Shown here one piece after another: positions 5,738 to 11,330 of a DNA stretch of 64,000 bases. Position 1 is the stretch's first letter; the number at the start of each line of letters is the position of its first letter. The translations under genes and the position numbers were made by a program. The stretch covers positions 14,384,001 through 14,448,000 of the forward strand of contig NC_135258.1 of assembly GCF_964204865.1 (NCBI RefSeq). The letters run 5' to 3'. The DNA comes from Styela clava (Eukaryota). The notes below the pieces were generated by a model that searched no databases, had not been told where the DNA came from, and was given only the letters and a program-made list of their open reading frames with translations.

Positions 5738-5800
5738 GTCGCCGGAGCGCGAACGTGATGTGAGTATGTGAAAGGGTAGTTTGAGTTTCTTCGCGCGCTT
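5738..5800 (+). promoter_or_regulatory. CpG-containing proximal promoter of TYMS with an E2F-like site
   Basis: GTCGCCGGAGCGCGAA and TTTCTTCGCGCGC resemble E2F sites (TTTSSCGC) about 80-140 bp upstream of the ATG of an S-phase gene. Confidence 0.4.
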
Positions 5801-5878
5801 TTACAGTCTTAGGAATTAGGATTCTAGATTCGTCAGGTAATTCTGTGAATCAATAATCTTTTACGGTAGAACTGTAGT

Positions 5879-6886
5879 ATGGAAAATCAGCCACCTGTTT
5901 CTTCGCAAATGATGCCCATGGAAGTAGCACCAGAAGAAATCCGCAAACATGGTACCGGTACGCCTCTCGCACAAATCAATCCAAATTGCCCTAGCAAATG
6001 TACAGAAACGACATCAGAAGAACAACACGGCGAGTATGAATACCTCAACTTATGCAGAAGGATATTGTCTAAGGGTAAAATAAAGGGAGATAGAACCGGC
6101 ACAGGAACAATATCTTTGTTTGGTGCTCAAATGCGTTATGACTTGAGAGAAAGTTTCCCGTTGTTGACCACCAAACGTGTCTTTTGGAAAGGTGTTCTAG
6201 AAGAATTACTTTGGTTTATAAGAGGCAGCACCAATGGAAATGAATTATCTTCTAAAGGAGTTCGAATATGGGATGCCAACGGCTCTCGTGAGTTTCTCGA
6301 TAAATTGGGATTTCATGATCGTGAAGTTGGAGATCTGGGACCTGTTTATGGGTTTCAATGGAGACATTTTGGCGCTGAATATGTTGACATGAACACTGAT
6401 TATACTGGGAAAGGTGTTGATCAGCTTTCTCAAGTAATAGAAACAATTAAAAAGGATCCAGACAACAGGAGAATTATGATGTGTGCCTGGAATGTTACAG
6501 ACATACCAAAAATGGCCTTGCCTCCATGTCATGCAATGTGCCAGTTTTATGTGTGTGATGGAGAACTATCATGCCAACTTTATCAGAGATCAGCAGATAT
6601 GGGGCTTGGTGTGCCTTTCAATATCGCTAGCTATTCCCTTCTTACATACATGATCGCTCATATTACAGGCTTAAAACCTGGCGATTTCGTACACACAATA
6701 GGAGATGCTCATGTATACAGCAATCATGTTGAACCTCTCAATGAACAGTTAAAACGTGTACCTCGACCATTTCCACTTCTTAAAATAAAAAGACAAATAT
6801 CAAATATTGATGATTTCAAATATGAAGATTTTGAGCTGGTAAACTATAAACCTCATGGCAAAATTGCAATGAAAATGGCTGTTTGA
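5879..6886 (+). CDS. TYMS: Thymidylate synthase (intronless CDS)
   Basis: [35 protein letters not shown], catalytic [31 protein letters not shown] and C-terminal MKMAV. Confidence 0.98.
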
Positions 6887-7457
6887 CCAAGGCACACTTG
6901 CTAAAGAGTCTTAGACATACACGAGCTATTTGGTGTCAGCACGAACAAGATTATGAACATTTATTTACTATAAATATTTCAGAAACTGCTTACCTATTAA
7001 ATAATGCAGATATCTGAATAGATTATTTGATAAGTATAGAATGGCCATCCACGATTTTCAGTTGTACACCAGGGTTTTATATTTGTACCATACAATTTTG
7101 TACAATACAAAAATGTGTAATCTAAATATGGTTAGATAATCTAAAAATTGACTTTTTAGTCTTGGTACAAAAAATAATACAATCATGTAACTAAATCATG
7201 GAAATGTTAAGAAGTGAAGCTGTAAACCAATCATACCAATTTAGGATGCAAAATAAGCACTTCTTCTGTTAGAGCTTTGTAGCCCAAACTTGAAAGTGTT
7301 TATTGTACATTCCAGATATACACATTCCTTGCCGCAAGTGGTTATTTATGTCATGTATAGTTTTTGTTGTTATTGTGTCTATTTATCAGTTTACAATTTG
7401 TATATTGTTCTTTTTTCAGTATAAAAACACCAAATTTGAATATTCTCTAAACTGGTT

Positions 7458-8765: not shown

Positions 8766-8922
8766 TTGTTTTTATATTGAAACTGATTATTCTCAATCAT
8801 AATTTTTGTTAGCTAGCAAATTGTTAGCGGACAGTCGTAAGGAAATACCTAATCAGAAAGATTTATATGAACTTTAGATTGTTGTTCGCGTTGACACTGT
8901 TTATTCTCAATCATAACTTTTG
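8701..8922 (+). repeat. Diverged tandem duplication (about 115 bp unit) spanning the PRIM1 stop codon
   Basis: CAAATTATTAGCAGATAGCCGTAAGGAAAAACTTAATCAGAAAGAT...TTATTCTCAATCATAATTTTTG is repeated as CAAATTGTTAGCGGACAGTCGTAAGGAAATACCTAATCAGAAAGAT...TTATTCTCAATCATAACTTTTG. Confidence 0.85.
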
Positions 8923-9395
8923 GTATCTGGATTTGACATGTTGGTAAATTGTAAACAATGTGCTGCTGCAGGTTTTGTTAATATTGGTTTCATTTAGGAA
9001 AGAACACTAGGGCTCTAATCAACTTGATAGACCTAATTTTAGCACCCGAACCTCAGAAACACTGCCGATTGGTCATTAGGAAGATATAGTACTGACCATT
9101 CAATAACTCCGTGTGGCCTAAAGCATAAAAATTGACCCAGACAAAATAAGCCCCAACCCCTACAAAGCTTCTTGGTAGAATTTTCCCCGGAGACCACCAA
9201 AAAATAGAAGATCCCAATTACTTAGTTGTTTAATATTATTTAAAATATGTCAATTTAGCTATAAAATACATATTTTGTAACTCTTTCCACACAATATAGT
9301 AAAAATTGTCTATATCCCCATTGGGTGGTTGTCGTGTTTCTAATTGCATAACAATACTGTAAATAATTTTTCACTTTTTTCCTTAGATTTTAAAT

Positions 9396-11330
9396 ATGAC
9401 TTCTAGAATTTCTTATACAATTTTACGTGGAATTTGTAGCAGAGGTTTATGTACAAGTGCTGCACGTCTTGGTTTTCTTCCACATGATCTTTTAAGAAGT
9501 GATATGCTCAGTTTGAGCGGCCTTGTCAAGCAAAAAAAGGTAAATTTGAAATGCCTATATACCTTACGCTAGGACAGCGCTGTCTGTGAAAATGCACAGT
9601 AGAGGGAAATCAAATTTTGAAAATGAATACTTGACGTATTGATTTCTATTATACGTTATTGACTCTGGAGAAAAATAATGATTTCAGCTCTACGGCGACA
9701 TGTTATTAATAGGAATTGATTTACGTGTTCGAATCCCATTCAGGGATAGTTAAGTGCGATAGGATTCTTGGACTTCTCACCGCCGTAGGGTTATTCACGC
9801 TACCACTGGTCGGTTACGGCTTCCTCCACGATCAGGTCCATGCTTCCAAAAACAAACAACTGACTACTGATCAAATTGAAAAGCCTTTATCCAATCAATT
9901 TTGCAGCAAATTCTTGATATTATCTATTTAATACCATAACAATGGTGAATCAACTAAGAAGACACAAATTTATAAATAAAAAACTTGCCTGGGATGAACT
10001 AATTATATGATACTGCAGCAAGTGTAAAGATAACTATTCTAAGTGATCCGAGAGTCTTAATTTACACCAAAACAAATAATATAACAGAAATATATTTGTG
10101 TTGGTGTGGAGCAAGAATCTATGAATCACTTGGAATAGTTATAGACTTATAGTAAAAAAAAAAAGCTGAATAGCAATAATTTTGAACCAAGTCTATATTA
10201 AATTTTTTACCGAATTTTCCAAATACCCAAAATCTTGGACCATCGTTTACTAAAATAATGTTTTTGTAGGTCTTGAGAAACAAAAAAAATTTTGGACCAT
10301 CTTTTATTAAAATAATCCTGTTTTTGTAGGTCTTGAGAAAGAAAAAACAGGAACAACTTGCTGCTGATGAGAGCAATGCTGCTTATTCTTACGGTCCCCT
10401 CAATGTTTCAGTTGAAGGTTATGATATGGTTGTTATAGAAAAATTTGCTCAAAACATCCATCGATTATTGCTGCAGGAAAAAGTTGACGTCAGAGAAGTG
10501 TGAGACAATGTTTTAAATGATTTATTGGCTTTTCATAAATGTATAAATTCATTTCCATGATCTTGAATAACAAAGTTTAAAGTAAAAAAAATCTCAAGAT
10601 GACATTTGATAAAAATCTGTTTTGTGGTATTAACACTAAGTAAAGAATGGTCAAACAACAAAAATAATACATTCTCAGGTGTAGTTGCTTATTCTGAACA
10701 TGTCATATTTTTTACATACCCGTATATTAACAAAGAGAGGTTATGATTCGAAAAGATTCAGGCCTCTCATAGAACTAAACCAAAACAGAAGGAATGTAAT
10801 GCCCTTGAAGCTCGGCGTACTACAAGGCTACTCTGTAAGTTTAATTTTCTTCAGGTATGCATTACCGACCGAACATTTAGCAGTGAAGCAGGTTGGCCAA
10901 AAATTGACAAAAGAAGTGCAGCAAATGGACAGAGTTGCCGAGCTACCGGTACATGCCAGAGTTCTACAGATTCAAGGCCTGCAGTCTACCTTGGCACCTA
11001 TTTTATTGCAAACGATTGCTTGCGATATTCCTCCAGGTGTCAAGCTTACGGTTAATAAGGTATAAATTTATATTTTCAAGTCTATTTGTCACAATTAAGG
11101 CAGTTATTGCTGGGAAAATAACGATAATTTAATCATGTAAATGCTTAGCAAGCGATTGGAAAACTTGTACTTTTTAATATATTAAACTGATAAATAAAAG
11201 CAAAAATGGCAAACACTATTTCACATTGTTTTTGCAGCACACTGAAGAAGATCGTCTGAAGAGATATAAACCAAATAAAGAGCTGGAAGCTGAAAAGCTT
11301 AATCTTTCTAAACTTCTGGCCGCACGTTAA
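9396..11330 (+). CDS. MRPL48: Mitochondrial ribosomal protein L48 (about 203 aa, 4 exons)
   Basis: Exons 9396-9539, 10330-10499, 10855-11059, 11238-11330 are phase-consistent. Arg/Ser-rich presequence MTSRISYTILRGICSRGLCTSAAR. GYDMVVIEKFAQNIH..YALPT..HARVLQIQGLQST..IPPGVKLTVNK-HTEED..RYKPNKELE matches the mL48 S10-like domain. Confidence 0.88.
9720..9870 (+). mobile_element. SINE family 1 fragment (MRPL48 intron 1)
   Basis: GTTCGAATC B-box followed by the core ACTGGTCGGTTACGGCTT...TCCATGCTT shared with copies at about 17.4, 26.8 and 31.3 kb. Confidence 0.65.
10231..10350 (+). repeat. About 60-bp tandem duplication containing the MRPL48 exon-2 splice acceptor
   Basis: TTGGACCATC...AAAATAAT..TGTTTTTGTAGGTCTTGAGAAA occurs twice, with AG acceptors at 10268-10269 and 10328-10329. 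Confidence 0.9.

What the first reader, a model, noticed from the sequence alone, without database searches (positions are those of the whole stretch)
5800..11330. TYMS-PRIM1-MRPL48: candidate SL trans-spliced operon coupling two DNA-replication genes
Seen: three co-oriented genes separated by only 571 and 630 bp. The downstream genes have a strong polypyrimidine-AG acceptor just before the ATG (TTCTTTTTTCAG ending 7419, ATG at 7458; CTTTTTTCCTTAG ending 9386, ATG at 9396). The spacers are AT-rich with no CpG promoter-like patch, whereas E2F-like CG motifs sit upstream of TYMS. Known: ascidians resolve polycistronic transcripts by SL trans-splicing, and TYMS and PRIM1 are both E2F/S-phase genes that are unlinked in vertebrates. 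Inference: a functionally coherent dTTP-supply plus primase operon in an animal.
Basis: partly seen in the sequence, partly recalled or inferred. Interest (0 to 1): 0.7.

Follow-up and report, generated by a model that had tools for sequence, protein, structure and literature searches.

The report
Sea-squirt three-gene trans-spliced operon
In a sea squirt, the genes for thymidylate synthase, primase and a mitochondrial ribosomal protein lie head to tail, the primase message carries the animal's spliced leader, and the three are likely read from one promoter as an ordinary tunicate operon, while special pairing of the two DNA-replication genes is unproven and appears absent in Ciona.

Summary
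The coordinates are right. The window is from the ascidian Styela clava. Intronless TYMS (5879-6886) and PRIM1 (7458-8765) precede four-exon MRPL48 (9396-11330), with strong acceptors at 7419 and 9386. One RNA-derived contig (1 of 5 runs) carries the known chordate leader joined at 7420; its donor genes form a tandem array in the same genome. TYMS contigs are colinear from about 5748, show no leader and reach 7381-7410, so the 'spacers' are transcribed 3' UTRs with almost no intercistronic DNA, as in Ciona operons. A leader at 9387 was not seen, and no molecule spanning two genes could be shown, because only contigs were available. A convergent PIX gene closes the unit. The functional claim is weak. 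TYMS and PRIM1 lie on different records in Ciona intestinalis and nine outgroups, MRPL48 is unrelated, and ascidian promoters lack CpG islands. About 11 of 25 replication genes here are intronless. A second cluster (FN3K-CDC45-FN3K-POLD2) hints at non-random grouping (P about 0.03-0.14, post hoc). Verdict: a real new member of a well-known kind.

The parts
5747..5796 (.). Two TTCGCGC cores (5747-5753 on -, 5790-5796 on +) in a CG-rich patch at the RNA 5' end; E2F-like, function untested
   Evidence: E2F consensus recalled
5748..5878 (+). TYMS 5' UTR, colinear with the genome, no leader; 5'-most RNA evidence at about 5748 (X4, X6) and 5768 (X8)
   Evidence: tables 7, 8 (loose ends at 5775 are an allele of 5750-5779)
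5879..6886 (+). TYMS CDS, 335 aa, intronless, single match in the genome
6887..7419 (+). TYMS 3' UTR / first 'spacer': contigs continuous with the TYMS CDS reach 7410 (X4) and 7381 (X6); X1 contig 7380-9041 crosses the acceptor
7408..7420 (+). Trans-splice acceptor of PRIM1; chordate leader joined at 7420
   Evidence: (X8)
7458..8765 (+). PRIM1 CDS, 435 aa, intronless, single match in the genome
8766..9386 (+). PRIM1 3' UTR / second 'spacer', no AATAAA or ATTAAA; contigs cross 9386 colinearly in X1, X4, X8
9374..9387 (+). Strong acceptor before MRPL48; predicted leader site, leader not seen; a library-adapter end lies at 9388 in X6
9396..11330 (+). MRPL48, exons 9396-9539, 10330-10499, 10855-11059, 11238-11330; three GT-AG introns seen as contig joints
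11376..11472 (-). Last coding exon of a convergent PIX (ARHGEF6/7-type) gene; minus-strand intron 11473-15685; marks the 3' limit of the unit
   Evidence: (betaPIX_CC)

Best explanation
TYMS, PRIM1 and MRPL48 lie head to tail, PRIM1 mRNA receives the spliced leader at 7420, and the three likely form one Ciona-type operon transcribed from a promoter near 5.75 kb. TYMS mRNA keeps its own 5' end (no leader in the contigs). The downstream mRNAs are predicted to be cut from the precursor by leader trans-splicing at acceptors placed at the end of the upstream gene's 3' UTR (join shown for PRIM1, inferred for MRPL48), with weak 3'-end signals allowing read-through. TYMS and PRIM1 likely arrived as retrocopies that replaced their parents and were kept because the host promoter was active in dividing cells. 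The replication pair would then be a lineage-restricted by-product of that filter, not a conserved pathway operon.
For: Leader join at the predicted base in X8. The leader matches the 'Chordata 1' consensus (PMC3795323 Table 1); leader+GTA occurs at 110 places, mostly one tandem array on C8. TYMS contigs run from about 5748 to 7381-7410 in X4 and X6 (one study); X1 crosses 7419; X1, X4, X8 (three studies) cross 9386. Adapter-terminated contig ends lie at 7430 (X2) and 9388 (X6), just inside the predicted mRNA starts. No AATAAA in either spacer and one ATTAAA (6996), which the X4/X6 allele alters; 16/18 Ciona operons lack the signal (PMC1488885). Single-exon 5' genes and abutting cistrons are Ciona hallmarks (PMC2760879 section 10). 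TYMS and PRIM1 each give one intronless match. Retro-replacement is reported for tunicates (PMC5408686, PMC5803294 passages citing Kim 2014).
Against: Only contigs, no reads: none spans TYMS CDS to PRIM1 CDS, and a contig across two genes shows no single transcript. The leader was seen at 7420 in only 1 of 5 runs and at 9387 in 0 of the 4 runs with a complete loose-end table (X1's table was cut). About half of Ciona genes are trans-spliced and most are not in operons; outrons average 438 nt, like these spacers (PMC4691747), so a leader alone does not prove an operon. One TATA-like word lies in each spacer (6969, 9260), though such words are common here. Exact poly(A) sites are unknown. Retroposition is inferred from intron absence only; no target-site duplication or poly(A) relic was identified and no parental locus was traced.
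Confidence: 0.68

Rival explanations
1. Two-gene operon TYMS-PRIM1; MRPL48 has its own promoter inside the PRIM1 3' UTR and is partly or wholly not trans-spliced.
For: No leader seen at 9387; contigs of X1, X4, X8 pass the acceptor colinearly, and in X1 one contig carries 283 nt upstream of it plus the spliced first intron. Ciona cytosolic ribosomal-protein genes are mostly not trans-spliced (71 of 76, PMC1488885).
Against: The acceptor is among the 9 strongest pyrimidine-rich AGs on this strand of the window and sits 9 nt before the ATG. X6 breaks between 9291 and an adapter end at 9388. A short leader tip would be clipped by assembly wherever a read-through path exists (recalled property of graph assemblies). 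MRPL48 is mitochondrial, not a cytosolic ribosomal protein.
Confidence: 0.15
2. Three separately transcribed genes in a compact region; PRIM1 is a monocistronic trans-spliced gene whose outron overlaps the TYMS 3' UTR.
For: The leader join is equally expected. Spacer length matches Ciona outrons (mean 438 nt), and ascidian promoters lack a CpG signature (PMC4691747). No contig joins TYMS CDS to PRIM1 CDS.
Against: Needs promoters inside 3' UTRs that are transcribed to within 10-39 nt of the acceptor. In Ciona such abutting pairs were concluded to be polycistronic (PMC1488885).
Confidence: 0.12
3. The TYMS-PRIM1 pairing is maintained by selection for joint S-phase (E2F) control of dTTP supply and priming. 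This is a claim about function and is compatible with the operon reading.
For: E2F-like cores flank the RNA start, and two similar cores lie 130-155 nt before the PCNA ATG. A second tight co-oriented cluster, FN3K-CDC45-FN3K-POLD2, lies head-to-head with STIL, and DTYMK is followed by a kinesin. Beyond the seed pair, 1 more of 299 pairs among 25 replication loci lies within 10 kb; P about 0.03-0.14.
Against: Unlinked in Ciona intestinalis (records of 8,965,682 and 5,437,517 bp) and in 9 of 9 outgroup species listed with both genes. 21 of 25 loci have no partner from the set within 10 kb. POLD2's family was added after it was seen beside CDC45. Five of six other genes first probed have no such core within 800 nt upstream of the first coding match. 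Tunicate operons trend loosely towards housekeeping and cell-cycle genes and are poorly conserved (PMC11067885).
Confidence: 0.2
4. A shared non-coding first exon (donor CAG/GTAATT at 5837/5838) is cis-spliced to 7420 or 9387, so TYMS and PRIM1 are nested in a 5'-UTR intron and no trans-splicing is needed.
For: It is the only AG/GT-type donor-like site in 5.6-9.4 kb by a simple pattern scan.
Against: No such joint in 5 of 5 RNA-like runs; the one join seen at 7420 is to the leader. Contigs drop rare forms, so a minor isoform is not excluded.
Confidence: 0.03

Closest known systems
Ciona intestinalis/robusta SL-resolved operons (Satou 2006 PMC1488885; Satou 2008 PMC2760879: 1,310 operons, 185 with three genes)
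   Same: Co-oriented genes, single-exon 5'-most gene, non-trans-spliced first cistron, leader at the downstream acceptor, upstream 3' UTR reaching the acceptor, no canonical poly(A) signal.
   Different: Different leader (25-nt 'Chordata 1' type, not the 16-nt Ciona leader). This gene combination is not linked in Ciona. An exact zero-gap boundary and polycistronic molecules are not shown here.
Oikopleura dioica operons (PMC11067885, PMC4122922, passages)
   Same: SL-resolved, loosely biased to housekeeping and cell-cycle genes, membership not conserved.
   Different: Oikopleura has 23-30 nt intercistronic DNA and its own leader (PMC1488885); this is a 377-Mb ascidian genome.
Retrogene replacement in tunicates and amphioxus (Kim 2014, seen only as cited; AmphiSYCP1, PMC5803294)
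   Same: Sole copies of essential genes are intronless and sit at lineage-specific positions.
   Different: Here the inferred retrocopies are stacked in an operon; the parental loci were not traced.
Caenorhabditis SL2 operons (as described in PMC1488885)
   Same: Trans-splicing resolves a polycistron; some members are functionally related.
   Different: About 100-nt intercistronic regions and a dedicated SL2; no second leader was sought or seen here.

Membership tests
Tunicate SL-resolved operon (Ciona type) | Same-strand neighbouring genes | tested here: met
Tunicate SL-resolved operon (Ciona type) | Under 100 nt between the upstream RNA 3' end and the downstream acceptor | tested here: met
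   TYMS contigs reach 7410 and 7381; contigs cross 7419 and 9386. These are contig ends, not mapped poly(A) sites.
Tunicate SL-resolved operon (Ciona type) | Leader on the second cistron (PRIM1) | tested here: met
   X8, join at 7420; 1 of 5 runs
Tunicate SL-resolved operon (Ciona type) | Leader on the third cistron (MRPL48) | tested here: inconclusive
   0 of 4 runs with a full table; adapter end at 9388 in X6
Tunicate SL-resolved operon (Ciona type) | Leader encoded elsewhere, followed by a splice donor | tested here: met
   110 leader+GTA loci, tandem array on C8
Tunicate SL-resolved operon (Ciona type) | Polycistronic precursor molecules | tested here: inconclusive
   Contigs cross both acceptors but cannot show single molecules
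Tunicate SL-resolved operon (Ciona type) | One promoter, no internal start sites | not testable with these tools
   No CAGE or raw reads were served
Conserved functional (pathway) operon | Linkage conserved across the group | tested here: not met
   Different records in Ciona intestinalis and 9 of 9 outgroups; other stolidobranchs could not be tested
Conserved functional (pathway) operon | All members in one process | tested here: not met
   MRPL48 is a mitoribosomal protein
Conserved functional (pathway) operon | Co-regulation through E2F sites | tested here: inconclusive
   Two partial cores at the RNA start; similar at PCNA, absent near five other genes; binding untested
Orphan retrogene | Intronless sole copy | tested here: met
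Orphan retrogene | New locus relative to an intron-bearing parent; insertion scars | not testable with these tools
   No other tunicate genome could be read; in-place intron loss is not excluded

The most novel reading that the evidence does not exclude
This ascidian builds S-phase operons: retroposed replication genes are kept only behind proliferation promoters, so they stack together more often than chance (TYMS-PRIM1 behind E2F-like sites; CDC45 and POLD2 in a four-gene unit head-to-head with STIL; DTYMK before a kinesin). That would make chordate operons young but functionally sorted.
Probability: 0.2. Interest if true: 0.55.

Novelty: new member of a known kind. Interest (0 to 1): 0.3.

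Why it matters
About a fifth of Ciona genes sit in such operons, so one more is ordinary. Its value is as a concrete operon with leader evidence in a stolidobranch ascidian, where I found no operon study in the listed results, and as a test case for whether tunicate operons sort genes by function. If replication genes do cluster beyond chance without deep conservation, that points to retroposition filtered by promoter activity as the way operons are assembled.

Tried and rejected
(1) Fourth cistron after MRPL48: first suspected from a splice at 11474, rejected because it is a minus-strand intron of a convergent PIX gene. (2) Leader on TYMS: the loose 5' ends at 5775 in X4 and X6 are a genomic allele; X1's extra letters are a rearranged piece of 6000-6034. 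(3) Upstream tetraspanin (ends 4041) as part of the unit: no RNA-like contig covered 5300-5741 in 3 runs where X10 did; lack of cover is a weak hint only. (4) No run is on record as RNA. (5) Synteny in closer relatives: the metagenome scan gave 7 loci of only 43-58% identity, not examined further. The MRPL48 search returned only the species' own protein. A relative's TYMS on a 9,662-nt contig (P0125) has no listed PRIM1 with that contig length, too weak to use. No Clavelina TYMS appeared in the top 120. (6) Relict leader upstream of TYMS or PRIM1: none seen by eye. (7) Neighbours of MCM2, MCM3, a third MCM, two RFC genes and GINS2: no co-oriented replication gene among 62 of 92 long ORFs scanned; short exons would be missed. 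(8) Earlier scan notes on this locus or look-alikes: none. (9) PMC2860165 was not held.
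Full report
OBSERVATION. All coordinates hold. TYMS is 5879-6886 (PF00303) and PRIM1 7458-8765 (PF01896); both are uninterrupted ORFs with one match each in the 377-Mb genome. The third gene, with exons 9396-9539, 10330-10499, 10855-11059 and 11238-11330, translates to P0245, named by NCBI 'mL48-like [Styela clava]'. PRIM1 falls in a 100/99 clade with Ciona and Clavelina (20 chosen rows). 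The acceptors at 7419 and 9386 are 2 of only 9 such pyrimidine-rich YAGs among 1604 on this strand. The CG patch before TYMS is real (top 0.44% of windows). The two TTCGCGC cores are at chance level in number (2 seen, 1.43 expected) but lie 43 nt apart around the RNA start; the motif was picked after inspection and the E2F consensus is recalled.

RNA EVIDENCE. No run is on record as RNA. Five of nine RNA-like contig sets from three studies (X1, X2, X4, X6, X8) and one DNA-like set (X10) were laid. X1, X4 and X8 show GT-AG joints at MRPL48 introns, X2 and X6 end in exon-2 sequence at the first donor, and X10 shows no such joint. In X8 a PRIM1 contig begins with 23 non-genomic letters followed by the bases of 7420 onward (with a 7-nt allelic gap). 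Those letters are the 3' part of the 'Chordata 1' leader in PMC3795323 Table 1 (one passage read). A 21-mer of it occurs 386 times in the genome, and leader+GTA 110 times, mostly in a tandem array on C8 with a 1,634-nt unit. So trans-splicing at the predicted base is shown, in 1 of 5 runs.

TYMS contigs are colinear from about 5748 (X4, X6) or 5768 (X8) and carry no leader. They end at 7048, 7123, 7236, 7381 and 7410 in the five runs. X1 has a contig 7380-9041 across the first acceptor. X1 (9104-9537, spliced on), X4 (9299-9537) and X8 (9107-9541) cross the second. Library-adapter ends (adapter identity recalled) lie at 7430 (X2) and 9388 (X6). No leader was seen at 9387 in the four runs; X1's loose-end table was cut. 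No joint from the donor-like site at 5838 appeared. No contig links TYMS CDS to PRIM1 CDS, and contigs cannot show single molecules, start sites or levels.

LIMITS OF THE UNIT. A splice at 11474 belongs to a minus-strand gene with a betaPIX coiled coil whose last exon faces MRPL48, so there is no fourth cistron. The upstream tetraspanin ends 1.7 kb before the RNA start.

MECHANISM. Shown: leader addition to PRIM1, a leader-free TYMS 5' end in contigs, and transcription of both 'spacers'. Inferred: one promoter near 5.75 kb, read-through helped by the lack of AATAAA in both spacers, and leader addition at 9387. This matches Ciona, where cistrons abut, 16/18 upstream cistrons lack the poly(A) signal (PMC1488885, passages), and 60% of operons begin with a single-exon gene (PMC2760879, passages and section 10). 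The caution: about half of Ciona genes are trans-spliced, mostly as single genes, with outrons averaging 438 nt and no CpG islands (PMC4691747 and PMC11155486, passages). Neither a leader nor a CG-poor spacer proves an operon alone.

IS THE PAIRING FUNCTIONAL? In Ciona intestinalis PRIM1 (XP_078489048.1) and TYMS (XP_078486253.1) lie on records of 8,965,682 and 5,437,517 bp, which I read as different chromosomes of one assembly, assuming single copies. Nine of nine outgroup species listed with both genes and record lengths (seven fishes, amphioxus, a hemichordate; matched by eye) also differ. Closer ascidians could not be tested.

I then located 25 replication or dNTP loci in this genome. About 11 have the CDS in one ORF (TYMS, PRIM1, PCNA, PRIM2, DHFR, CDC45, DTYMK, MCM3, a second MCM, one RFC, GINS2; MCM2 nearly so), against 15% single-exon genes outside and 38% inside Ciona operons. 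Of 300 pairs, two lie within 10 kb on one strand: the seed pair and CDC45-POLD2, inside FN3K-CDC45-FN3K-POLD2, head-to-head with STIL. Simple nulls with assumed gene numbers give P 0.03-0.14 for that extra pair, and 0.03-0.87 for at least one replication pair per genome. POLD2 was noticed before its family was searched, and there is no RNA evidence at that locus. This is suggestive, not significant. A loose bias of tunicate operons to housekeeping and cell-cycle genes, with poor conservation, is already described (PMC11067885, passages; PMC4122922, passages).

ORIGIN. Retroduplication with loss of the parent is reported as a source of intronless tunicate genes (Kim 2014, seen only as cited in PMC5408686 and PMC5803294). 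A retrocopy of an essential S-phase gene can replace its parent only behind a promoter active in dividing cells, which would group such genes without selection for the pair itself. This step is inference; in-place intron loss is not excluded.

NOVELTY. Searches for Ciona+operon+thymidylate synthase+primase and operon+trans-splicing+TYMS+PRIM1 found 0 papers, and none of the 20 papers listed of 764 mentions Styela clava. Subscription papers (Zeller 2010, Danks 2015, Gasparini and Shimeld 2011, Matsumoto 2010) and all supplements were not seen. Stolidobranch trans-splicing is known (Botryllus, PMC3691228, passages). The locus is a new member of a known kind.

VERDICT. Observation confirmed; three-gene operon 0.68, at least TYMS-PRIM1 about 0.83; selected functional pairing about 0.2; interest 0.3.

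Noticed in passing
L037 (G000:C13:14,448,300-14,456,600, minus strand); L056: Co-oriented cluster FN3K-like, CDC45, FN3K-like, POLD2 with gaps of about 480-660 nt, head-to-head with STIL; a second candidate operon with two replication genes.
   Followed up: partly
L038:3942-9815; L028: Intronless DTYMK followed 1.2 kb later by a kinesin (KIF15-like by eye); an intronless ubiquitin-conjugating enzyme followed 1.3 kb later by intronless DHFR.
   Followed up: partly
L005/L006, L007/L008, L009/L010 (G000:C1): Pairs of 717-754-nt direct repeats, 99-100% identical, 6.3-6.5 kb apart, starting TG, each holding the leader exon about 150 nt in with no donor in two of three pairs: LTR-like elements whose RNA was likely leader-capped. 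Many such pairs are among the 386 leader copies.
   Followed up: partly
G000:C8:4.23-4.61 Mb (L043-L046): Tandem array of predicted SL RNA genes, 1,634-nt unit, interrupted by longer units.
   Followed up: partly
L032, L033, L035, L036 (small contigs C25-C361): Over 20 small contigs of the assembly hold head-to-tail units of about 45 kb with thymidine kinase and thymidylate kinase ORFs that read through TGA (open under table 4): likely co-sequenced phages, not animal chromosomes.
   Followed up: partly
window 8694-8814 and 8809-8928: Degenerate tandem duplication (about 115-nt period, 83-87% in two blocks) of the PRIM1 coding end and the start of its 3' UTR.
   Followed up: no
window 10247-10287 and 10307-10347: Duplicated acceptor of MRPL48 exon 2, 60 nt apart; X2's loose end at 9539 differs from the other runs.
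   Followed up: no
window 5758-5771: Two ATG-TGA start-stop elements in the TYMS 5' UTR; the first is altered in the X4/X6 allele.
   Followed up: no
window 11376-11472 (-): The PIX stop codon lies 45 nt from the MRPL48 stop, so the two 3' UTRs must overlap in antisense.
   Followed up: partly
P0005-P0007, P0009, P0012: Full-length PRIM1 proteins called on long ENA contigs group with tunicates; if those calls ignore introns, intronless PRIM1 is widespread in tunicates.
   Followed up: partly
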